This document shows positions 1-47,081 of a stretch of 64,000 nt of DNA, in pieces (the first letter of the stretch is position 1; every line of letters starts with the position of its first letter). The position numbers and the translations under genes are program-made. Source of the stretch: Clostridia bacterium (GTDB taxonomy: Bacteria > Bacillota > Clostridia > Oscillospirales > CAG-272); NCBI GenBank assembly GCA_017466685.1, contig JAFTTS010000065.1, forward strand, positions 4,581 through 68,580. The letters are read 5' to 3'. The notes beneath the pieces are model-generated. The model had not been told where the DNA came from, did not search any database, and saw only the letters and a list, made by a program, of their open reading frames with translations.

Positions 1-1026
1 GCGATAAAAAAGGAGCTTCGACGCGGCGGACAGGTCTTCTTCCTGCATAATACCGTTGATGACATTGACGCGGTTGCACTGCGAATACAGCGTGCCGTAC
101 CCGATGCGCGTATAGCTGTGGCTCACGGTCAGATGGACAAGGAGATGCTTTCGGATATCTGGCGCGGAATGGTTACGGGTGAGATCGATATTCTCGTTTC
201 AACGACCATTATTGAATCGGGTGTTGACGTTCCAAATGCAAACACTTTGATCATCGACCATGCTGACAGGCTCGGTCTTTCACAGCTTCATCAGATACGC
301 GGCAGAGTCGGACGTTCAAGCCGTCGTGCCTATGCTTATTTCACATATCCGCCGTTCAAGACTCTCAACGAGATCGCACAGAAGCGTCTTTCCGCGATGC
401 GTGAATATACCGAGTTCGGTTCGGGCTTCAAGATTGCGCTTCGTGACCTTGAAATACGCGGTGCAGGTAATCTTCTCGGTTCGGAACAGCATGGGCAGCT
501 CGATTCGATCGGTTATGATCTTTACGTCAAGATACTGAACGAAGCAGTGCTCGAGGAAAAGGGTATCAAGCCCGAGCCGAAGTTTGAGAGTAAAATTGAC
601 GTTGCGCTCGATGCGTTCCTGCCCGAAAAATATATCAAGAGCGAATCGCAGAGAATGGATATTTACAAAAAGATCGCGCATATTGAGTGTACGGAGGACC
701 TTGATGACCTTGCCGACGAGCTGATGGACCGTTTCGGCGAGATACCGCGTCAAGCAGATACGCTGATGTACGTTTCGCTGGCACGTGCACTCTGTGTTAA
801 GGCGCGTATACCCAAGATCGAACACCACGGCGACACGATAACCATCCTGCCCGAGCAGATTGATCCGATGCGATGGGCGAAGGCGAGTGCTGATACGAAT
901 GTTCAGCTTACGTTCAGAATGTCGGGCAGACCGTCGATCAACTATAAGATCAAAAGCTCACGTCCGCTTTACGACATTTGTGAGGTTTTAAAGCATTACA
1001 TTTTGGCGGATGATACAGCCAAGTGA
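1..1026 (+). CDS. mfd: Transcription-repair coupling factor Mfd, C-terminal part (5' end lies outside the window)
   Basis: Frame 1 is open from base 1 (AIKKELRRGGQVFFLHN...). Helicase C-terminal motifs ILVSTTIIESGVDVPNANT and QLHQIRGRVGRS are followed by a TRCF-type C-terminal region. Confidence 0.9.
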   Translation, partial: AIKKELRRGGQVFFLHNTVDDIDAVALRIQRAVPDARIAVAHGQMDKEMLSDIWRGMVTGEIDILVSTTIIESGVDVPNANTLIIDHADRLGLSQLHQIRGRVGRSSRRAYAYFTYPPFKTLNEIAQKRLSAMREYTEFGSGFKIALRDLEIRGAGNLLGSEQHGQLDSIGYDLYVKILNEAVLEEKGIKPEPKFESKIDVALDAFLPEKYIKSESQRMDIYKKIAHIECTEDLDDLADELMDRFGEIPRQADTLMYVSLARALCVKARIPKIEHHGDTITILPEQIDPMRWAKASADTNVQLTFRMSGRPSINYKIKSSRPLYDICEVLKHYILADDTAK

Positions 1027-1192
1027 TGTGGAAAACTCTGTTGAAAACCCGCAAAAGCTGTGGAAAAAGTCAGGTTTCACCGTGGAATTCGACATGATTT
1101 GGCAGAAAATGGGCATAAAACTCATAAATGGCTCACGTATTGCATAATGAGCGAAAATCTCAAATATATGCGGATTTTGATTAAAAACAGTA

Positions 1193-1221
1193 TTGAAATA
1201 ATATCGGCTGTGTGGTATAAT
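1193..1221 (+). promoter_or_regulatory. Sigma-A-type promoter upstream of the GH13 gene
   Basis: TTGAAA (1193..1198), 17-nt spacer ending in TGG (extended -10), TATAAT (1216..1221). Confidence 0.6.
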
Positions 1222-1272
1222 TGAAGATATACAGTATAGTTTGGTAAGATATCGTTATGTAAGGTGATTATT

Positions 1273-2817
1273 ATGAAAAATTGGCTTAACGATGCTGTGG
1301 TATATGAAATATATCCGCAGTCATTCTATGATACTAACGGTGATGGAATCGGTGATCTGCAAGGAATCATCGAAAAGCTTAATTATATTGAGTCGCTTGG
1401 ATTCACTGCGATCTGGTTGAATCCGATAAACCCCAGCTCTTTTCGCGATGCCGGCTATGATGTGACAGATTTTTACGGCGTTGATCCGCGGTACGGAACG
1501 GTCGATGACTACAAGGCTCTGTGCGATGCGGCACATTCACGCGGAATGAAGGTCATATTTGATTTAGTTGCCGGACACACCTCAATTGATCATCCGTGGT
1601 TTATTGAATCGGCTAAGGACGAAAAGAACGAATATACAAATCGCTATATATGGACTGACGACACCTTCGATAATTCGGAGGGAATTGCAGGATACGGTCA
1701 GCGAAACGGAAATTTTATCAAAAACTTTTTCTGGTCACAGCCGGCACTGAATTACGGCTTTGCAAATCCGGATCCTGATAAGCCGTGGCAATTGCCGGTA
1801 ACTCATCCGGACTGCGTAGCCACGAAAAATGAACTGAAGCGGATTATTGATTTTTGGATCGATCTCGGAACAGATGCTTTCCGTGTGGATATGGCGCAGT
1901 CGCTTATAAAGGGTGATAAGGAAGGAACATATTTAAAAGCCTTCTGGAATGAAATTCGCACCCACATGGAGAATAAAAATCCAAACTGTCTTTTAATTTC
2001 GGAATGGGGACTTCCGACAAAGGCAATAAATTCGGGCTTCCATCTTGATTTTTTGCTTCATAGTATGATATCGGCATATACGTCTCTGTTCAGATATGAA
2101 AAGGGCAGAAACACAACGAGACGGTTTGTCGGTCACAGTTACTTCAATAAAGACGGAAAAGGAAATATAAATGAATACCTTGACCGTTTCCTTTATGACC
2201 TTGAAAATATAAATGGCAAGGGTTATATAGGACACATCACAGGCAATCACGATATGCAGAGACTTGCATACGGAAGAACGCCTGATGAGGTAAAGGTTGC
2301 GATGACATTCCTCTTTACGATGCCGGGTGTACCGGTTGTTTATTACGGTGATGAAATCGGAATGGATTATATAGAGGGTCTGCCGTCGAAAGAGGGCGGC
2401 TATAACCGTACCGGCTCACGAACACCCATGCAGTGGAATGATAAAAAGAACCATGGATTTTCAGAGAGTGACACCCCATATCTGCCAACAGACAATCGCG
2501 AGGGTGCTCCGACGGTTGAGAGTCAGGAAAAAGACAATGAGTCGCTGCTCTCGCTTGTTAAAGAATTGATCAAGCTGCATAGATCAAATCCGGCACTTTG
2601 GGCAGAAGCGGGATTTAAGGTTATTTCGGCGGGATATCCCTTTATATTTGAACGCTTTGACGGAGATAAAAAGCTGCTTATAGCCATTAACCCGTCCGAT
2701 AAGAATTATAAATGTGATGTTCCTGTGTTTGATAAGGTTGTGCTCAGCCAAAATGCAAAGGCAGAAAATGGTCGGCTCGATATGGGCGGAGTCAGCTTTA
2801 TCATAGCAGAAATATAA
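1273..2817 (+). CDS. GH13 alpha-glucosidase / oligo-1,6-glucosidase-like enzyme
   Basis: N-terminus YEIYPQSFYDTNGDGIGDLQG. GH13 catalytic regions DAFRVDMAQ, ISEWG and GNHDMQR. AAGGTG RBS lies 6 nt before ATG 1273 (the ORF opens at GTG 1264). Confidence 0.85.
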   Translation: MKNWLNDAVVYEIYPQSFYDTNGDGIGDLQGIIEKLNYIESLGFTAIWLNPINPSSFRDAGYDVTDFYGVDPRYGTVDDYKALCDAAHSRGMKVIFDLVAGHTSIDHPWFIESAKDEKNEYTNRYIWTDDTFDNSEGIAGYGQRNGNFIKNFFWSQPALNYGFANPDPDKPWQLPVTHPDCVATKNELKRIIDFWIDLGTDAFRVDMAQSLIKGDKEGTYLKAFWNEIRTHMENKNPNCLLISEWGLPTKAINSGFHLDFLLHSMISAYTSLFRYEKGRNTTRRFVGHSYFNKDGKGNINEYLDRFLYDLENINGKGYIGHITGNHDMQRLAYGRTPDEVKVAMTFLFTMPGVPVVYYGDEIGMDYIEGLPSKEGGYNRTGSRTPMQWNDKKNHGFSESDTPYLPTDNREGAPTVESQEKDNESLLSLVKELIKLHRSNPALWAEAGFKVISAGYPFIFERFDGDKKLLIAINPSDKNYKCDVPVFDKVVLSQNAKAENGRLDMGGVSFIIAEI

Positions 2818-40051: not shown

Positions 40052-40534
40052 GTGAAAGAAAATAAGAAGCAATATACAGTCTGTTTTACGGGACATCGCC
40101 AGATTCCAAGCGGCGAATATGAAACGCTCGCTGCTCGTCTGCGTGAAGTAGTCGCACGACTCATTGAGCGTGGGTTTTGCTATTTTGGAGTCGGCGGTGC
40201 GCTCGGGTTTGACACGCTCGCCGCAGAGACGGTGCTCGATTTTAAAGAAAAATATCCGTATATAAAGCTGATTCTCGTTTTGCCTTGCCGTGATCAGACG
40301 CGGTATTGGAGTGACCACGACAAGGAAAGATATGAGCATATTTGCAGTCGTGCCGACAAGGTAACGTGCTTTTATGATAAATACAGACGTGGTTGTATGC
40401 ATGAGCGTAACCGTCACCTCGTTGATCATAGCTCCGTTTGTGTTTGCTATCTCACACATTACGGCGGCGGTACTGATTATACCGTTTCTTATGCCGAAAA
40501 GCTCGGTGTTGAGATTATAAATCTCGCGCTTTAA
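40052..40534 (+). CDS. DUF1273 / YpsA-like SLOG-fold protein
   Basis: VCFTGHRQIP...GFCYFGVGGALGFDTLAAE signature. GTG 40052 has an AAGGTGA RBS, whereas the ORF opens upstream without one. Confidence 0.7.
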   Translation: MKENKKQYTVCFTGHRQIPSGEYETLAARLREVVARLIERGFCYFGVGGALGFDTLAAETVLDFKEKYPYIKLILVLPCRDQTRYWSDHDKERYEHICSRADKVTCFYDKYRRGCMHERNRHLVDHSSVCVCYLTHYGGGTDYTVSYAEKLGVEIINLAL

Positions 40535-41202
40535 GTGTTGCTTTTTATCATTTCGTGAAGTGCACCCAGTGCCGCCGCGAGTCCTCCAACCTCGTCAATG
40601 AGTCCGAGCGAAACTGCTTCTTCACCGTCGATTATTGTGCCGACATCGGTGGCGATTTCATCGGTGGTCATCATTAATTTCGTGAATTTTTTCTTCTCGA
40701 TACTGCTGTTTCGGCAGACGAAATCAGTGATGCGATCCTGCATTTTTTTGAGGTTTTCAAAGCTTTGCGGTACGCCGACGACGAGTCCGTTTGTTCGTAC
40801 AGGGTGGATCGTCATTGTTGCGCTTGGGACGATGAATGAGCGTTTTGCCGCGACTGCAAGCGGTACGCCTATCGAATGTCCGCCGCCGAGTACGATTGAA
40901 ACGGTCGGCTTTTTCATGCCCGATATCATCTCGGCAATCGCGAGTCCTGCTTCAACGTCGCCACCGACTGTATTGAGGAGAATCAGCAGTCCGCCGATGT
41001 CTTTGCTTTCCTCTATTTGACAGAGCAGGGGAATGCTCTGCTCGTATTTTGTGGTTTTTGTGGTGTCGCCGAGAACATAGTGTCCCTCAATTTGCCCGAT
41101 GATGGTCAGGCATTGTACGTCCGATTTGTTTGTGAGTACCGTTCCTGCTTTTTCAATTGAGTCGATGGTTTCCTCGGTTACGTTTTGGTTGTCGTTGTTC
41201 AT
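40531..41202 (-). CDS. ClpP-fold peptidase, TepA-like
   Basis: LNTVGGDVEAGLAIAEMI...LGGGHSIGVPLAVA...MTIHPVR resembles the ClpP/TepA S14 family. Confidence 0.7.
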   Translation of the reverse strand: MNNDNQNVTEETIDSIEKAGTVLTNKSDVQCLTIIGQIEGHYVLGDTTKTTKYEQSIPLLCQIEESKDIGGLLILLNTVGGDVEAGLAIAEMISGMKKPTVSIVLGGGHSIGVPLAVAAKRSFIVPSATMTIHPVRTNGLVVGVPQSFENLKKMQDRITDFVCRNSSIEKKKFTKLMMTTDEIATDVGTIIDGEEAVSLGLIDEVGGLAAALGALHEMIKSNT

Positions 41203-41273: not shown

Positions 41274-41302
41274 TTTACATTTGAAGAAATTTGTGGTACA
41301 AT
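41274..41302 (+). promoter_or_regulatory. Promoter of the pduL / NifU-like / GGGtGRT operon
   Basis: TTTACA (41274..41279), 17 nt ending in TGG, TACAAT (41297..41302). Confidence 0.55.
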
Positions 41303-41356: not shown

Positions 41357-41932
41357 ATGGCAAATCAGGTACTTGTTGAAACATCCGCAAGACACGTTCA
41401 CCTTTCTGCAGAGCACATCGAAGTTCTCTTCGGCAAGGGTGCAACCCTCACTCACAAAAAGGATCTCTCTCAGCCCGGTCAGTTCGCGTGCGAAGAGCGC
41501 GTAACTCTCGTTGGCCCGAAGAAGCAGATCGCTAATGTTATCATTCTCGGTCCGGCTCGTCCCGCAACTCAGGTTGAGGTTTCCTTCACCGATGCAAGAA
41601 CTCTTGGCGTAAACGCTCCTGTTCGTGAGAGCGGCGACGTTGCAGGTTCGGCAGGCTGCAAGCTCGTAGGCCCTGCAGGTGAGGTTGACATTACAGAGGG
41701 TGTTATCGTTGCAAAGCGTCACATCCATCTCACTCCCGACGATGCTGCAAAGTTCGGCGTTGAGGACAAGCAGGTCGTTTCCGTTAAGATCGACAGCGCA
41801 GACCGCACCACCGTTTTCGGTGACGTTGTTTGCCGCGTAAGCCCCAAGTTCGCTGCTGCTATGCACATCGATACCGATGAAGCTAACGCTGCTTGCGCTT
41901 TCGGCGAAGTTTACGGCGAGATCGTTAAGTAA
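41357..41932 (+). CDS. pduL: Phosphate propanoyl/acetyl-transferase PduL
   Basis: Duplicated PduL motifs: ETSARHVHLS...GPARPATQVE and AKRHIHLTPDDA...RVSPKFAAAMHIDTDEANA. AAAGGAAA RBS before ATG 41357. Confidence 0.9.
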   Translation: MANQVLVETSARHVHLSAEHIEVLFGKGATLTHKKDLSQPGQFACEERVTLVGPKKQIANVIILGPARPATQVEVSFTDARTLGVNAPVRESGDVAGSAGCKLVGPAGEVDITEGVIVAKRHIHLTPDDAAKFGVEDKQVVSVKIDSADRTTVFGDVVCRVSPKFAAAMHIDTDEANAACAFGEVYGEIVK

Positions 41933-41996
41933 TTTTTACATATTTAGTCCGTTATATGGCAATAATATGAAATATTAAAATAAAGGAGATATAAAC

Positions 41997-42689
41997 ATGA
42001 ACTATACTCACGAAGTTGAACAGATGTGTTGTGTAGCCAAGGGTCCGAAGCACGGCCCCGCACCTATTCCCGAAGAGGGCAGATGGGTTAAGGCTTACGA
42101 AATCAAAGACATTTCCGGTCTTTCTCACGGTATCGGCTGGTGTGCACCTCAGCAGGGTATGTGCAAGCTGACACTTAACGTTAAAGAGGGTATCATCGAG
42201 GAAGCTCTCGTTGAAACCTGCGGATGCTCCGGTATGACTCACTCCGCTGCTATGGCAGGTGAGATCCTCCAGGGTAAGACTCTCCTCGAAGCACTCAACA
42301 CTGACCTCGTTTGCGATGCTATCAACGTAGCAATGCGCGAGATCTTCAAGCAGCTCGCTTACGGTCGTTCACAGACTGCATTCTCCGAGAACGGTCTTCC
42401 CGTTGGTGCATCTCTTGAAGACCTCGGTAAGGGTCTCCGTTCCCAGATCGGTACTATCTTCGCAACCAAGGAAAAGGGCGTACGTTACCTCGAAATGGCA
42501 GAGGGTTATATCCTCGAGCTCGGTCTTGACAAGGACAATGAGGTTATCGGTTACAAGTTCGTAAACCTCGGTAAGATGATGGATGCCATCAAGGCTGGTA
42601 CTGATCCCAAGGAAGCATACGAATCCAACATCAAGACTTACGGCCGTTATGATGACGCTGTTAAGTACATTGATCCGAGAAAGAACTAA
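41997..42689 (+). CDS. NifU/IscU-N-like Fe-S scaffold domain protein with an extra C-terminal domain
   Basis: GWCAPQQGMCKLTLNVKEGIIEEALVETCGCSGMTHSAAMAGEILQGKTLLEA follows the IscU pattern (three Cys). AAGGAG RBS. Confidence 0.6.
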   Translation: MNYTHEVEQMCCVAKGPKHGPAPIPEEGRWVKAYEIKDISGLSHGIGWCAPQQGMCKLTLNVKEGIIEEALVETCGCSGMTHSAAMAGEILQGKTLLEALNTDLVCDAINVAMREIFKQLAYGRSQTAFSENGLPVGASLEDLGKGLRSQIGTIFATKEKGVRYLEMAEGYILELGLDKDNEVIGYKFVNLGKMMDAIKAGTDPKEAYESNIKTYGRYDDAVKYIDPRKN

Positions 42690-42707
42690 GAGAGGAGGAG
42701 CACGAAT

Positions 42708-43718
42708 ATGTCTAACAATGTAAAATTTGAGGGTAAGGAAAGACGCCTTGCCGGTATTGAAGCTTGCCTCGCAGAGTACGGTATCAAGGATCTCGAGGAA
42801 GCAAGAGAAATCTGCCTTGCAAAGGGCGTTGACGCTGACGCTATTGTTAAGGGTATTCAGCCTATCGCGTTTGAGAACGCTGCATGGGCATACACTCTCG
42901 GTTGCGCTATCGCAATAAAGAAGGGATGCAAGAACGCCGCTGATGCTGCTGAAGCAATCGGTATCGGTCTTCAGGCATTCTGTGTACCCGGTTCTGTTGC
43001 ATCCACCCGTAAGGTTGGTCTCGGCCACGGTAACCTCGGCGCAATGCTTCTCCGTGAAGAGACAAAGTGCTTCTGCTTCTTGGCAGGTCACGAGTCCTTC
43101 GCAGCAGCAGAGGGCGCTATCGGTATCGCAAGAACCGCTAACAAGGTAAGAAAAGATCCTCTCCGTGTTATCCTTTGCGGTCTCGGTAAGGACGCTGCAT
43201 TCATCATTTCGAGAATCAACGGCTTCACCTATGTTTGCACCGATTATGACTTCTACACTGACGAGCTCAAGGTCGTTTACGAGAAGGCATACTCCGACGG
43301 TGACAAGGCGAAGGTTAAGTGCTACGGCGCTAACGACGTTCTCGAGGGTGTTGCAATCATGCGTCACGAGGGTGTTGACGTTTCCATCACCGGTAACTCG
43401 ACCAACCCGACCAGATTCCAGCATCCCGTTGCAGGCACTTACAAGAAGTGGGCACTTGAGAACGGCAAGAAGTACTTCTCCGTTGCATCGGGCGGTGGTA
43501 CAGGTCGTACACTCCATCCCGACAACATGGCAGCAGGCCCTGCTTCCTACGGCTTAACCGATACTATGGGACGTATGCACGGCGACGCACAGTTCGCAGG
43601 TTCGTCCTCTGTTCCGGCTCACGTTGAGATGATGGGACTTATCGGTGCAGGTAACAACCCCATGGTTGGTATGACCGTTGCTTGTGCTGTTGCAGTTCAG
43701 GAAGGTATGAATAAGTAA
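42708..43718 (+). CDS. GGGtGRT-motif family protein (function unknown)
   Basis: Contains SVASGGGTGRTLHPDN, the motif after which the uncharacterised GGGtGRT family is named. Starts 18 nt after the NifU-like gene. GAGGAGG RBS. Confidence 0.7.
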   Translation: MSNNVKFEGKERRLAGIEACLAEYGIKDLEEAREICLAKGVDADAIVKGIQPIAFENAAWAYTLGCAIAIKKGCKNAADAAEAIGIGLQAFCVPGSVASTRKVGLGHGNLGAMLLREETKCFCFLAGHESFAAAEGAIGIARTANKVRKDPLRVILCGLGKDAAFIISRINGFTYVCTDYDFYTDELKVVYEKAYSDGDKAKVKCYGANDVLEGVAIMRHEGVDVSITGNSTNPTRFQHPVAGTYKKWALENGKKYFSVASGGGTGRTLHPDNMAAGPASYGLTDTMGRMHGDAQFAGSSSVPAHVEMMGLIGAGNNPMVGMTVACAVAVQEGMNK

Positions 43719-43741
43719 GATTTGGCTTTGCCGATAAATAG
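43668..43741 (+). repeat. Direct repeat DR1 (last 17 codons of the GGGtGRT gene plus 23 nt downstream)
   Basis: GAAGGTATGAATAAGTAAGATTTGGCTTTGCCGATAAATAG recurs at 45327 and, from TAAGTAAG onward, at 47052. Confidence 0.85.
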
Positions 43742-43743
43742 CG

Positions 43744-43779
43744 AAACTCCGCTTCTGTTATGTGAGGCGGAGTTTTTGT
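43744..43779 (+). terminator. Terminator after the GGGtGRT gene
   Basis: 9-bp stem AAACTCCGC/GCGGAGTTT followed by a T-run. Confidence 0.75.
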
Positions 43780-45293: not shown

Positions 45294-45368
45294 GGTATGG
45301 TTCTTATCTCCGCTGTTGCGCTCGAAGAAGGTATGAATAAGTAAGATTCGGTTTTGCCGATAAAAAAG
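45294..45368 (+). repeat. Direct repeat DR2 (decayed copy of the GGGtGRT gene 3' end)
   Basis: GGTATGGTTCTTATCTCCGCTGTTGCGCTCGAAGAAGGTATGAATAAGTAA reads GMVLISAVALEEGMNK*, against GMTVACAVAVQEGMNK* in the intact gene. It is followed by GATTCGGTTTTGCCGATAAA. Confidence 0.85.
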
Positions 45369-46241: not shown

Positions 46242-47047
46242 CAACATTTCAGAAAGTAATCAAATATTTGTCGATAGCGTTTGCACTTTTTCTTACCGTA
46301 AGTATCATCGGAGGAGCTTTAGGTCTTATCGGTCGGCTCGGCGGTTTGCTTGACGGTGATAATGTTATGGAAGATGCCGAGGTATATGCAGTATCCGATA
46401 ATATTACTGCGCTTAATATAAAAATAAACGCTGCCGATTTCACTATCAAGCAGTCGGATAAATTTTCAGTTGAGAGCAATTTAAAGCATCTTACCGTGAA
46501 AGAAGACGATGGCGTTCTTATTATTAAGGAAGCAAAGACGTTTGGGATCACATACACCGATGCCGTGCTTATACTTAACATTCCCGAAGGAATGAAATTT
46601 GAAAAGGTCGATATAACGACAGGCGCAGGCGTAGTGGCTGTTGATGCACTGTCCGCAGACTCATTGACGCTTGAGCTTGGTGCCGGTGAAGTTAAAATCA
46701 ATTCGCTGACGGCAGACAGAAATGTCAATATAGACGGAGGCGCAGGAAAGATCACGATTGCAGGCGGTTCACTTCGCAATCTTGACCTTGGCATGGGCGT
46801 CGGACAGCTTAATCTGATGGCGGCTGTTCTTGGAAACAGTGATTTTGATTTAGGTATTGGCGAAACGAACATCACTTTGATCGGCACAAAAGATGATTAT
46901 TCCATTGACGTTGAAAAAGGTATCGGAAATGTAAGCGTAGACGGCAAAAGCGTGTCTGATAGTGCAGACATTGGCAACGGCGAAAACAATATTGAAATAA
47001 GCGGCGGTATCGGTGCGATAAATTTAGTTTTCGCAGATGAGGAATAA
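46238..47047 (+). CDS. DUF4097 / LiaG-like beta-helical protein with an N-terminal TM anchor
   Basis: Repetitive G.G.v.i strands (TTGAGVVAVD, LGAGEVKIN, GGAGKITIA, GIGETNITL, GIGNVSVDG). ATGA overlap with the LiaF-like gene. Confidence 0.65.
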   Translation: MTTFQKVIKYLSIAFALFLTVSIIGGALGLIGRLGGLLDGDNVMEDAEVYAVSDNITALNIKINAADFTIKQSDKFSVESNLKHLTVKEDDGVLIIKEAKTFGITYTDAVLILNIPEGMKFEKVDITTGAGVVAVDALSADSLTLELGAGEVKINSLTADRNVNIDGGAGKITIAGGSLRNLDLGMGVGQLNLMAAVLGNSDFDLGIGETNITLIGTKDDYSIDVEKGIGNVSVDGKSVSDSADIGNGENNIEISGGIGAINLVFADEE

Positions 47048-47051
47048 AATT

Positions 47052-47081
47052 TAAGTAAGATTCGGCTTTGCCGATAAATAG
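47052..47081 (+). repeat. Direct repeat DR3
   Basis: TAAGTAAGATTCGGCTTTGCCGATAAATAG differs from DR1 by one base (29 of 30 match). Confidence 0.85.

What the first reader, a model, noticed from the sequence alone, without database searches (positions are those of the whole stretch)
41357..43718. Conserved-looking operon of PduL, a NifU-like scaffold protein and a GGGtGRT protein, outside any microcompartment context
**Seen in sequence.**
- Three co-directional genes sit behind one promoter (41274..41302).
- The gaps are 64 nt and 18 nt, with no internal terminator. A strong terminator follows the last gene.
- Codon usage looks strongly biased (ctc, ggt, gtt, aag), which suggests high expression.
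- The middle protein has an IscU-like three-cysteine pattern and an extra C-terminal domain.
- The last protein carries the GGGTGRT motif of an uncharacterised family.
- No BMC shell genes and no acetate or propionate kinase are nearby.

**Established.** PduL interconverts acyl-CoA and acyl-phosphate.

**Inference.** The GGGtGRT protein may be an Fe-S-dependent enzyme acting on an acyl-CoA or acyl-phosphate intermediate, matured or partnered by the NifU-like protein. The pathway is unassigned.
Basis: partly seen in the sequence, partly recalled or inferred. Interest (0 to 1): 0.6.

Follow-up and report, generated by a model that had tools for sequence, protein, structure and literature searches.

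The report
Candidate iron-sulfur enolase replacement operon
A very highly expressed three-gene operon joins an ordinary acetate-pathway enzyme (PduL) to an extremely conserved, uncharacterised two-protein module (NifU-like + GGGtGRT) which, in a gut-bacterial genus with no detectable enolase gene, is the best available candidate for the long-sought substitute for that near-universal glycolytic enzyme.

Summary
pduL (41357-41932), a remodelled NifU/IscU-like gene (41997-42689) and a GGGtGRT gene (42708-43718) form one compact operon with top-1% expression-type codon usage.

The conserved core is the NifU-like/GGGtGRT pair. It is adjacent in every informative locus (78 of 80, and 25 of 26) and is 63-100% identical to the window's copies across the loci sampled from the phylum. 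pduL is attached only in about half the genera of this family. Here it is the genome's only phosphotransacylase, so it is probably housekeeping.

Four lines point instead to the enolase step (2-phosphoglycerate to PEP):
- This genome and 31 of 32 species of its genus show no normal enolase, yet the genome keeps GAPDH, PGK, TPI, iPGM and pyruvate kinase.
- In 401 high-quality genomes of the order, 133 of 142 enolase-less genomes carry the pair.
- In seven other genomes the pair sits in gap-pgk-tpi-pgm-[pair](-pyk), where eno normally lies.
- In four genomes a fluoride riboswitch heads the pair's operon; enolase is a classic fluoride target.

Counter-evidence: nine enolase-less genomes lack the pair, there is no biochemistry, and GGGtGRT has no fold relatives. 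This scan has noted the pair before in at least 360 other genomes, and earlier notes gave the enolase lead, which I tested here. Function remains inferred (about 50%).

The parts
41274..41302 (+). Sigma-70-type promoter-like site with extended -10 (TTTACA-17-TGgTACAAT)
   Evidence: 10 of 12 matches, TG present; sequence read. This is a consensus match only.
41357..41932 (+). pduL: phosphotransacylase without an encapsulation peptide, probably the cell's housekeeping phosphotransacetylase
   Evidence: PF06130 at 8.8e-83. NCBIfam PRK15070 scores 269 bits, above its cut-off of 209. The BMC_EutD model scores 263.7, below its cut-off of 315, and alignment starts at model position 18. It is the only PF06130 hit in the genome; no PF01515 Pta and no BMC shell were found. 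Codon-usage percentile 99.0. The ATG at 41357 fits the homologues (MANxVLVE) and the RBS.
41997..42689 (+). NifU/IscU-like protein (230 aa): remodelled three-Cys N-terminal domain plus a novel C-terminal domain; obligate partner of GGGtGRT
   Evidence: NifU_N scores 22.2 bits over residues 57-103 only and lies far below the IscU, NifU and SufU equivalog cut-offs. C49, C77 and C106 are invariant. Foldseek matches IscU and SufU with probability about 1 and target TM about 0.5. IscU's Asp and His ligand positions are not kept. The gene is directly upstream of GGGtGRT in 78 of 80 and 25 of 26 loci. Codon percentile 99.6.
42708..43718 (+). GGGtGRT protein (336 aa, PF14057): orphan fold, proposed substrate-binding/catalytic subunit
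   Evidence: PF14057 at 3.6e-193; motif S261-GGGTGRT-L269. No invariant Cys, but many invariant His, Asp, Glu, Ser, Arg and Lys. The family collapses to about two full-length clusters at 50% identity. AF2 gives pLDDT 80.8 and pTM 0.82, with the most conserved stretch (263-304) unmodelled. No PDB fold or sequence relative was found. Single copy in the genome. Codon percentile 98.8.
43743..43776 (+). Intrinsic-terminator-like hairpin (13-bp stem, T-run) ending the operon

Best explanation
The operon encodes two functions of the sugar-to-acetate trunk, both expressed at the level of the most abundant proteins.

1. **PduL** is the cell's ordinary phosphotransacetylase (acetyl-CoA + Pi to acetyl-phosphate), feeding acetate kinase encoded elsewhere. 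It is not a microcompartment enzyme.

2. **The NifU-like and GGGtGRT proteins** together form a two-subunit, iron-dependent enzyme. It most likely carries out the enolase step, dehydration of 2-phosphoglycerate to phosphoenolpyruvate, in an organism that has no enolase.

**Proposed mechanism (inferred):** the NifU-like subunit holds an Fe-S cluster on three invariant cysteines (C49, C77, C106). It has no fourth protein ligand at the IscU Asp and His positions. That would leave one iron free to act as a Lewis acid on the C3 hydroxyl and carboxylate, as in aconitase, IlvD/Edd and serine-dehydratase type enzymes. GGGtGRT supplies the substrate pocket: the glycine-rich S-GGGTGRT-LHPDN loop with invariant Arg, Lys and His for the phosphate, and an invariant His, Glu or Ser as the base. 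Such an enzyme would not form the Mg-fluoride-phosphate complex that poisons enolase. This would explain why other bacteria put the pair under fluoride riboswitches. It would also need iron, which would explain the published repression at low iron.

**Shown:** gene content, synteny, conservation, codon bias, absence of enolase, and co-occurrence statistics.

**Inferred:** complex formation, the cluster, the reaction and the mechanism.
For: **(a) The gap is exactly at enolase.**
- No PF00113 hit in this genome, and no tblastn hit with three enolases from the same family (best E 0.16).
- GAPDH, PGK, TPI, iPGM and PK are all present.
- In the genus, 31 of 32 species genomes have no enolase hit and 28 of 32 have GGGtGRT. 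The one divergent enolase-like gene is in a genome without the pair.

**(b) Co-occurrence.**
- Order sample (401 genomes, at least 95% complete): GGG+eno- 133, GGG+eno+ 155, GGG-eno+ 104, GGG-eno- 9. So 94% of enolase-less genomes carry the pair (OR 9.9).
- Families that largely lack the pair keep enolase in 76 of 77 genomes.
- Phylum sample: 9 of 27 carriers lack enolase against 7 of 374 non-carriers. All four 100%-complete enolase-less genomes are carriers.
- Enolase pseudogenes with in-frame stops occur in carriers.

**(c) Gene order.**
- Seven genomes have gap-pgk-tpi-iPGM-NifU-like-GGGtGRT.
- Pyruvate kinase follows directly in one of them. One of the seven (G030, 100% complete) has no enolase.
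- Fumia xinanensis has gap directly upstream of the pair.

**(d) Fluoride.** In 4 of 20 unbiased loci (four families) an RF01734 riboswitch heads the operon: riboswitch-pair-crcB-crcB-DUF190 (three loci) and riboswitch-pyrophosphatase-pair (one).

**(e) Features of a central enzyme.**
- Top-1% codon usage and extreme conservation.
- Published high abundance in gut anaerobes (PMC11204068).
- 11-13-fold repression at low iron in B. thetaiotaomicron (PMC10434189), and induction with iron in C. pasteurianum (PMC5395762).
- Transposon hits in BT0173-4 came from the same glucose-signalling screen as pfkA, with no growth defect in a species that also has enolase (bioRxiv 10.64898/2026.04.10.717545; control).

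**(f) The question is open.** The missing enolase is unresolved in the literature (PMC2914790, PMC6118326, PMC11026938, PMC11187502). No paper in the searched library links it to GGGtGRT.

**(g) PduL as housekeeping enzyme.** It is the sole PF06130 hit, with no Pta and no BMC shell found, and AckA is present.
Against: - **No biochemistry exists.** The only published assay on an enolase-less rumen bacterium found 'only a very low level' of enolase activity in extracts (Kelly 2010, PMC2914790). The method section does not say whether air was excluded, and I could not verify that the strain carries the pair.
- **Exceptions.** Nine high-quality genomes of the order lack both enolase and the pair. 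Three of them (G412, G417, G425; 97-99% complete) keep PGK and iPGM but also lack PK and PduL. So another way of living without enolase must exist.
- **Redundancy.** 60% of enolase-positive genomes in the order also carry the pair. It is therefore not simply an alternative to enolase and may do something else that only permits enolase loss.
- **Phylogeny.** The co-occurrence statistics are not corrected for phylogeny, and both traits are typical of gut and rumen anaerobes.
- **No homology.** GGGtGRT has no sequence or fold similarity to any dehydratase.
- **Weak structural basis.** The cysteine geometry is only inferred: the NifU-like model is weak (pLDDT 66.6) and the motif region of GGGtGRT is unmodelled.
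- **No fusion.** No natural fusion of the two proteins was found.
- **Window-specific gaps.** In this window there is no glycolytic neighbour and no riboswitch.
Confidence: 0.5

Rival explanations
1. The pair is an abundant iron or Fe-S handling or protective module. It could be cluster storage, delivery or repair for oxygen- or fluoride-sensitive central enzymes such as PFOR, or a redox-stress protein like rubrerythrin. Under this reading its association with enolase loss only reflects shared ecology and ancestry among gut and rumen anaerobes.
For: - IscU-like fold and three invariant Cys.
- Strong iron-dependent expression in the literature (PMC10434189, PMC5395762).
- Expressed alongside rubrerythrins in vivo (PMC11204068).
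- A flavodiiron-type gene lies upstream in five Ruminiclostridium-like loci (assigned by eye, not scanned).
- 60% of enolase-positive genomes also carry the pair.
- B. thetaiotaomicron mutants grow normally (bioRxiv 10.64898/2026.04.10.717545).
Against: - It does not explain the insertion between iPGM and pyruvate kinase in gap operons.
- It does not explain fluoride riboswitch control together with crcB or pyrophosphatase.
- It does not explain the near-restriction of enolase loss to carriers within single families.
- A canonical IscU, with a NifS-like neighbour (assigned by eye, not scanned), already exists in this genome.
- The IscU ligand positions that make the scaffold cluster labile are not kept.
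Confidence: 0.2
2. The pair is a metabolic enzyme of lower glycolysis or its surroundings but not an enolase analogue. Examples: a route from 2- or 3-phosphoglycerate to pyruvate that bypasses both enolase and pyruvate kinase, a phosphoglycerate or PEP phosphatase or mutase-type activity, or another fluoride-sensitive phosphoryl-transfer step.
For: - The same context evidence applies: gap operon, fluoride riboswitch, codon bias.
- The glycine-rich motif and invariant Arg, Lys and His suggest a phosphate-binding site.
- Weak Rossmann-like and PFK-like fold hits.
- Very low enolase activity in extracts of an enolase-less bacterium (PMC2914790) would fit a route that never makes free PEP.
Against: - Pyruvate kinase is retained in this genome and lies directly after the pair in L119. 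This argues that PEP is still the product.
- The simplest reading of the position iPGM-[pair]-PK is the single missing step.
- The fold hits are not significant (best E 0.1, TM about 0.24).
Confidence: 0.15
3. One reading: GGGtGRT is an Fe-S enzyme acting on the acyl-CoA or acyl-phosphate handled by PduL, and the NifU-like protein matures or partners it. The three genes would form one dedicated pathway.
For: - Tight three-gene operon with matched codon bias.
- pduL lies directly upstream of the pair in about 26 of 53 carrier genera of this family.
Against: - pduL is absent from the neighbourhood in 90 of 101 loci, and in all 20 loci from other families of the phylum.
- Many carriers, B. thetaiotaomicron among them, use Pta and show no PF06130 hit (control lists).
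- PduL is the only phosphotransacylase here, so it must serve general acetate formation.
- No acyl-CoA enzyme recurs next to the pair.
Confidence: 0.05
4. The pair is a sensor or regulator of glycolytic flux or iron status rather than a catalyst.
For: Transposon insertions in BT0173-4 raise Roc two-fold, which suggests altered glucose-dependent signalling (bioRxiv 10.64898/2026.04.10.717545).
Against: - Top-1% codon usage and very high protein abundance are atypical for regulators (PMC11204068).
- No DNA-binding or signalling domain was found.
- The signalling phenotype is equally explained by altered flux, as for pfkA in the same screen.
Confidence: 0.05

Closest known systems
BT0173 (GGGtGRT) and BT0174 ('NifU') of Bacteroides thetaiotaomicron; F502_05012 of Clostridium pasteurianum (Pfam PF14057 family)
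   Same: The same two-gene module. B. thetaiotaomicron is the only one of 14 control genomes that matches PF14057. It is abundant, iron-responsive and has no assigned function (PMC10434189, PMC5395762, PMC11204068, bioRxiv 10.64898/2026.04.10.717545).
   Different: Those organisms also have a normal enolase and no pduL next to the pair. In this genome the pair is fused into an operon with pduL, and no enolase is detectable in the genome or its genus.
Enolase (phosphopyruvate hydratase, PF00113/PF03952, TIGR01060)
   Same: The proposed reaction, the place in the gap-pgk-tpi-pgm operon, membership of fluoride-riboswitch regulons, and very high expression.
   Different: There is no sequence or fold similarity. 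The module has two subunits and is probably iron or Fe-S dependent rather than Mg-dependent. It works like enolase at most; it is not a member of the family.
Fe-S (de)hydratases with a three-Cys [4Fe-4S] cluster and one free iron (aconitase, class I fumarase, L-serine dehydratase, IlvD/Edd), and iron-dependent versus iron-free isozyme pairs such as FumA/FumC (from established biochemistry, not tested here)
   Same: Exactly three invariant Cys. The reaction is the same type of alpha,beta-elimination of water from a 2-substituted 3-hydroxy acid. Expression falls when iron is scarce. The module coexists with an iron-free isozyme in many genomes.
   Different: There is no homology. The cysteines sit on a separate IscU-like subunit, which is unprecedented for this enzyme class. 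The cluster type and its role are unproven.
IscU/NifU/SufU Fe-S scaffold proteins (PF01592; TIGR01999, TIGR03419, TIGR01994)
   Same: The fold of the N-terminal half and the central GC(S/G) cysteine motif.
   Different: It fails all equivalog cut-offs. The Asp and His ligand positions are not kept and the third Cys is displaced. It has an extra 100-residue C-terminal domain. There is no cysteine desulfurase next to it, and a canonical IscU exists elsewhere in the genome.
PduL-type phosphotransacylase used outside microcompartments as the housekeeping phosphotransacetylase (for example reported for Moorella thermoacetica; from my own knowledge, not checked here)
   Same: A PF06130 enzyme with no encapsulation peptide, no BMC genes and no Pta in the genome.
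   Different: Here it is co-transcribed with the NifU-like/GGGtGRT pair, an arrangement limited to this family.

Membership tests
PduL / PTAC phosphotransacylase (PF06130) | Full-length match to the family model above the curated cut-off | tested here: met
   PF06130 scores 276.8 bits (cut-off 25) over profile positions 2-174 of 176. NCBIfam PRK15070 scores 269.2 bits, above its cut-off of 209.
Microcompartment-associated PduL/EutD | N-terminal encapsulation peptide and BMC shell genes in the locus or genome | tested here: not met
   The BMC_EutD_Gpos model scores 263.7, below its cut-off of 315, and alignment begins at model position 18. No PF00936 hit in the whole genome, which is 89% complete.
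GGGtGRT protein family (PF14057) | Full-length model match and the GGGTGRT motif | tested here: met
   641.2 bits over profile positions 1-326 of 327. The motif at residues 262-268 is invariant in 30 sequences.
GGGtGRT / NifU-like two-gene module | NifU-like gene immediately upstream on the same strand | tested here: met
   18-nt gap in the window. The same order holds in 78 of 80 and 25 of 26 other loci; the remaining loci lack upstream DNA.
IscU/NifU/SufU scaffold (PF01592; TIGR01999, TIGR03419, TIGR01994) | Whole-domain match above the equivalog cut-off | tested here: not met
   It scores 25.5, 22.2 and 18 bits against cut-offs of 187.9, 192.4 and 92.5. Only about 47 residues align.
IscU/NifU/SufU scaffold | Three Cys plus Asp/His ligands at the canonical positions | tested here: not met
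   Only C77 aligns with an IscU Cys. C-G-D is C-A-P here, and the His-Cys position is not matched; C106 lies about 14 residues earlier. Three other-position Cys are invariant.
IscU/NifU/SufU scaffold | IscU fold | tested here: met
   Foldseek probability 0.96-1.00 to IscU chains, target TM about 0.5, for the N-terminal half. The model is of modest quality (pLDDT 66.6).
Enolase superfamily (PF00113/PF03952) | Sequence or fold homology to enolase | tested here: not met
   No Pfam, PDB-sequence or Foldseek similarity. Any relation is functional analogy only.
Enolase (function) | Catalyses 2-phosphoglycerate to PEP | not testable with these tools
   Only indirect evidence exists: the gene-order slot between iPGM and PK, co-occurrence with enolase loss, and fluoride riboswitches.
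Fe-S dehydratases (aconitase / IlvD-Edd / serine dehydratase type) | Cluster held by three Cys with an open iron site; homology to a known family | tested here: inconclusive
   Three invariant Cys lie on the partner subunit, and GGGtGRT has no invariant Cys. No homology to any such family was found. The presence of a cluster is untested.
Fluoride-riboswitch (RF01734) regulon | crcB-motif riboswitch upstream of the operon | tested here: not met
   No Rfam hit anywhere in the window. The feature is met in relatives: L130, L131, L132 and L118, which is 4 of 20 sampled loci.

The most novel reading that the evidence does not exclude
The NifU-like/GGGtGRT pair is a non-homologous, iron-sulfur-dependent, fluoride-insensitive enolase. 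It would be a second, independently evolved enzyme for a near-universal step of glycolysis. Its presence would have allowed about a third of the species in a major order of gut bacteria, and the rumen bacteria that have puzzled microbiologists since 2010, to discard the classical enzyme.
Probability: 0.45. Interest if true: 0.95.

Novelty: categorically new. Interest (0 to 1): 0.8.

Why it matters
Enolase is treated as a universal, essential enzyme. Its absence from rumen and gut bacteria has been an explicit open problem since 2010 (PMC2914790) and was restated in 2018, 2023 and 2024 (PMC6118326, PMC11026938, PMC11187502).

This window gives a clean natural test case. The genus has GAPDH, PGK, TPI, iPGM and pyruvate kinase but no enolase. 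It also has an orphan two-protein module expressed like a glycolytic enzyme. The module has no relatives of known function, and it occupies the enolase slot or the fluoride regulon in other genomes.

If the reading is right:
- It adds a new enzyme class for a textbook reaction.
- It changes metabolic reconstruction for a large share of gut and rumen species. Here 35% of high-quality genomes of the order lack enolase.
- It explains an abundant 'unknown' protein in gut metaproteomes.
- It links iron supply and fluoride tolerance to glycolysis.

If the reading is wrong, one of the most conserved and abundant protein pairs of anaerobes still has no function. The nine genomes lacking both systems would then point to yet another unknown route.

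Tried and rejected
- **Remote homology of GGGtGRT.** phmmer and profile searches against PDB sequences, Pfam at E up to 10 and Foldseek against the PDB gave nothing significant. The weak PFK and Rossmann-like hits (E at least 0.1, TM about 0.24) were rejected as generic alpha/beta similarity.
- **C-terminal domain of the NifU-like protein.** No family or fold match.
- **Natural fusions as evidence of a complex.** All long 'variants' turned out to be chimeric assemblies or internal duplications.
- **Homologue searches for diversity.** The two word-indexed searches returned only near-identical proteins. Diversity came instead from genome sampling.
- **Microcompartment context.** Rejected, because there are no shell genes.
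- **Recurrent neighbours across 74 Oscillospirales loci.** Apart from pduL none recurs.
- **Riboswitch or other RNA element in the window.** None found.
- **MAG incompleteness as the cause of the missing enolase.** Rejected by the genus-wide result and by tblastn with family-specific queries.
- **Prefilter miss of divergent enolase in the genomes lacking both.** A family-specific protein query recovered only an N-terminal fragment in G452 and nothing in G410, G412, G417 or G425.


Full report
**1. What is in the window.**

The plus strand carries three close-packed ORFs:
- 41357-41932 (191 aa),
- 41997-42689 (230 aa),
- 42708-43718 (336 aa).

They are separated by 64 and 18 nt. Pfam assigns them to PTAC/PduL (PF06130, 8.8e-83), weakly to NifU_N (22.2 bits, residues 57-103 only) and to GGGtGRT (PF14057, 3.6e-193). 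Each gene has a strong RBS. An extended -10 promoter-like site lies at 41274-41302, and a 13-bp hairpin with a T-run lies at 43743-43776.

The window comes from a Candidatus Flemingiibacterium MAG of the Oscillospirales. The closest public loci bear that name, and the assembly is 89% complete.

**2.

- *Codon bias holds.* The first axis of codon usage across 1,616 long ORFs of the genome has EF-Tu, GAPDH, PFOR, AckA and EF-Ts at its top. The three genes project at percentiles 99.0, 99.6 and 98.8.
- *No microcompartment.* No BMC shell gene exists anywhere in the genome. PduL lacks the N-terminal extension of the BMC-type EutD model.
- *PduL looks housekeeping.* It is the only phosphotransacylase found: one PF06130 hit and no PF01515 Pta. 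Acetate kinase is present on another contig. PduL is therefore best read as the housekeeping phosphotransacetylase.
- *The NifU-like protein is not the housekeeping scaffold.* A canonical 144-aa IscU lies on contig C38 (178 bits) beside a 388-aa ORF that looks like NifS by eye (not scanned).

**3. What is conserved.**

- In 80 loci fetched with GGGtGRT from one-genome-per-species contigs, the NifU-like gene is directly upstream in 78. The other two have no upstream DNA.
- In an even sample of 401 genomes of the phylum, 27 carry GGGtGRT, one copy each. The pair is adjacent in 25 of 26 loci; the remaining one is a contig-end fragment.
- Both proteins are 63-81% identical to the window's copies across that sample. 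Mean column identity is 78-79%.
- Against 1.84 billion cluster representatives at 50% identity, the family collapses to about two full-length clusters. Most other listed hits match only part of the query; the four inspected were an assembly duplication, two frameshifted sequences and the one genuinely divergent member.
- pduL is a lineage-specific addition. It lies directly upstream in 10 of the 80 loci, all near relatives. By coordinates it lies upstream in about 26 of 53 carrier genera of the window's family. It is upstream in none of 20 loci from other families.
- Apart from pduL, no neighbour recurs among 74 Oscillospirales loci.

**4. The two proteins.**

*GGGtGRT*
- It has no invariant cysteine. 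C92 and C121 are Thr or Val in some members and in the 51%-identical P0272.
- It has many invariant polar residues: H107, H128-E129-S130, H239, S261-GGGTGRT-LHPDN, R289, H291, D293 and H305.
- AlphaFold gives a confident model (pLDDT 80.8, pTM 0.82) of an N-terminal helical bundle plus a Rossmann-like alpha/beta domain.
- The most conserved stretch, residues 263-304, is the least confident part. That is what one expects of a loop which is ordered only with a partner or cofactor. This is an inference.
- Nothing in the PDB resembles it by fold (best E 0.1) or by sequence profile.

*NifU-like protein*
- C49 (GWCAPQQG), C77 (GCSGMTHS) and C106 (LVCDAIN) are invariant.
- Its N-terminal half matches IscU and SufU folds.
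- Aligned with the genome's own IscU, only C77 is positionally equivalent. IscU's Asp (C-G-D) is C-A-P here, and the His-Cys position is not matched.
- So this is a remodelled three-Cys site without the usual fourth ligands, joined to a novel C-terminal domain.

**5. What the literature says.**

- The orthologous B. thetaiotaomicron pair BT0173-4 falls 11-13-fold at low iron (PMC10434189).
- The C. pasteurianum protein rises with iron (PMC5395762).
- Transposon insertions in BT0173-4 were recovered, together with pfkA, in a screen for loss of glucose-dependent silencing. They caused no growth defect (bioRxiv 10.64898/2026.04.10.717545).
- No function is assigned anywhere in the searched library.

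**6. The lead from earlier notes, and my tests of it.**

This scan has noted the pair before in at least 360 other genomes. Several follow-ups proposed that it stands in for enolase, and one described the same pduL operon in another genome. I treated this as a lead and tested it on this genome and on fresh samples.

*(a) This genome.* There is no Enolase_C hit, although all 14 control genomes have one. tblastn with three enolases from the same family finds nothing (best E 0.16). GAPDH, PGK, TPI, iPGM and pyruvate kinase are all present. The gap is therefore exactly the enolase step.

*(b) Genus.* 31 of 32 species genomes have no hit, which cannot be incompleteness. 28 of 32 have GGGtGRT. The one hit is a divergent enolase-like protein, below the NCBIfam equivalog cut-off (282 against 300), in a genome without the pair.

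*(c) Family (61 genera).*
- Enolase is found in 31, four of them with in-frame stops and most with unusually low scores.
- GGGtGRT is found in 53 and PGK in 60.

*(d) Order (401 genomes, at least 95% complete).*

| | enolase found | enolase not found |
|---|---|---|
| pair found | 155 | 133 |
| pair not found | 104 | 9 |

- So 94% of enolase-less genomes carry the pair, against 60% of enolase-positive ones (odds ratio 9.9).
- By family, lineages that mostly lack the pair keep enolase in 76 of 77 genomes.
- Lineages where the pair is near-universal have lost enolase in most members.

*(e) Phylum.* 9 of 27 carriers lack enolase, against 7 of 374 non-carriers. Those seven are 85-97% complete. All four 100%-complete enolase-less genomes are carriers. 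These statistics are not phylogenetically corrected.

*(f) Gene order.* I fetched 19-kb regions around the pair in 20 phylum-sample genomes.
- Seven genomes of one family have gap-pgk-tpi-iPGM-NifU-like-GGGtGRT on one strand, confirmed by Pfam.
- In L119 pyruvate kinase follows directly; in L123 it lies 2.7 kb further on.
- The L123 genome (G030, 100% complete) has no enolase.
- In Fumia xinanensis gap lies directly upstream of the pair.

*(g) Fluoride.*
- In L130 and L132 an RF01734 riboswitch lies 50-60 nt upstream of the NifU-like gene. The operon continues with two crcB genes and DUF190.
- In L131 the same array is preceded by a riboswitch and a TauE gene.
- In L118 the riboswitch precedes a family-I pyrophosphatase gene followed by the pair.
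- Enolase and pyrophosphatase are the classic fluoride-inhibited enzymes; this is established knowledge.
- No paper in the library connects fluoride riboswitches with NifU-like genes.

**7. Interpretation.**

The simplest account of all this has two parts. PduL is the ordinary phosphotransacetylase. The pair is a two-subunit, iron-dependent enzyme that makes PEP from 2-phosphoglycerate.

The reaction removes the C2 proton and the C3 hydroxyl of a 2-substituted 3-hydroxy acid. It is of the type that Fe-S dehydratases catalyse with a three-Cys cluster and a free iron. The NifU-like subunit offers exactly three invariant cysteines and no obvious fourth ligand. GGGtGRT offers a glycine-rich, Arg/Lys/His-rich conserved loop suited to bind a phosphate.

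Such an enzyme would be:
- insensitive to fluoride, which fits the riboswitch control;
- costly in iron, which fits repression at low iron and coexistence with Mg-enolase in many genomes, as with FumA and FumC;
- oxygen-labile, which fits its restriction to anaerobes and could explain why extracts showed little activity in 2010.

In this genus, which has dropped enolase, joining the pair to pduL would simply co-express two highly used enzymes of the ATP-yielding route from sugar to acetate.

All mechanistic steps are inferred. I put the functional claim at about 0.5.

**8. What speaks against it.**

- There is no biochemical evidence.
- Extracts of B. proteoclasticus B316 showed only very low enolase activity (PMC2914790). 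I could not check whether the assay was anoxic or whether that strain carries the pair.
- Nine high-quality genomes of the order lack both systems. G412, G417 and G425 keep PGK and iPGM but also lack pyruvate kinase and PduL. At least one further solution must exist.
- Most carriers still have enolase.
- The NifU-like model is weak, and the cysteine geometry is unverified.
- No fusion protein supports a physical complex.

Rival readings remain open: an iron or Fe-S handling or protective module, another lower-glycolytic or fluoride-sensitive reaction, or a regulator.

**9. Novelty and verdict.**

The genes are catalogued (Pfam PF14057; 'iron-sulfur cluster assembly scaffold protein' in RefSeq-style names). 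The pair has been seen by others and, many times, by this scan. It has no known function and no fold relatives, and its architecture (an IscU-like subunit with an orphan partner) has no precedent.

The missing-enolase problem is explicitly open (PMC6118326, PMC11026938, PMC11187502). A 2026 preprint on enolase-negative Segatella still argues from PEP-synthesis bypasses.

This window adds:
- a clean enolase-less genus;
- a family-wide pduL fusion;
- the largest co-occurrence table I could build.

I rate the interest high because a long-standing question becomes directly testable with two genes and an anaerobic enzyme assay.

Noticed in passing
window 43686-43738, 45312-45364, 47026-47078: The last ~30 nt of the GGGtGRT gene plus ~20 nt downstream occur three times as direct repeats (100%, 87%, 60% identity), 1626 and 1714 nt apart, and they bracket two small gene cassettes. 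Other genomes of the family likewise carry isolated matches to only the last 30-70 residues of GGGtGRT, 1-3 kb downstream of the intact gene (for example G445, G419, G408, G436). The 3' end of this ultra-conserved gene therefore looks like a recurrent integration site.
   Followed up: partly
Genomes G437, G414, G424, G431 (family) and G278, G519, G687 (order); Enolase genes in this family and order often score low (350-400 bits against about 450 elsewhere), and several carry in-frame stop codons. This suggests ongoing decay of enolase in lineages that have the pair.
   Followed up: partly
Order-level sample: Enolase was not found in 142 of 401 (35%) genomes of this order that are at least 95% complete. 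That is far above the <0.5% reported for cultured isolates in 2018 (PMC6118326).
   Followed up: partly
Genomes G412, G417, G425 (97-99% complete), also G410; A subgroup of the family lacks enolase, GGGtGRT and PduL, and (in the three high-quality genomes) pyruvate kinase as well, yet keeps PGK and iPGM. How these organisms get from phosphoglycerate to pyruvate is unexplained.
   Followed up: partly
window 42369-43517, minus strand: A 382-aa antisense ORF spans the NifU-like/GGGtGRT junction and is longer than either real gene. Its codon usage is at the 6.8th percentile, so it is spurious, but it could mislead longest-ORF gene callers (it misled my own first pass).
   Followed up: yes
Proteins P0241, P0249, P0263, P0319, P0038, P0001 (public protein collections): Many long 'GGGtGRT' entries are assembly chimeras (an ABC ATPase, Tex-like or SusD-like N-terminus joined to GGGtGRT) or internal duplications. 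The likely cause is that near-identical DNA is shared by many co-occurring species.
   Followed up: yes
window 40531-41202 (minus strand); L006-L009, L035: A ClpP/SppA-like serine protease gene (PF00574, 3e-22) lies divergently upstream of the operon and is kept in that place in the nearest relatives.
   Followed up: no
L061, L067, L082 and related Ruminiclostridium-like loci: In five loci a 395-aa protein that looks like a flavodiiron (FprA-type) protein lies about 0.5 kb upstream of the pair on the same strand. The assignment is by eye and was not scanned.
   Followed up: no
L138 (G485:C161), 760-2088 minus strand: The only enolase-like gene in the genus is a full-length but divergent enolase (TIGR01060 282 bits, below its cut-off of 300). 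It is found in one of the four genus genomes with no GGGtGRT match (the other three are 67-82% complete).
   Followed up: partly
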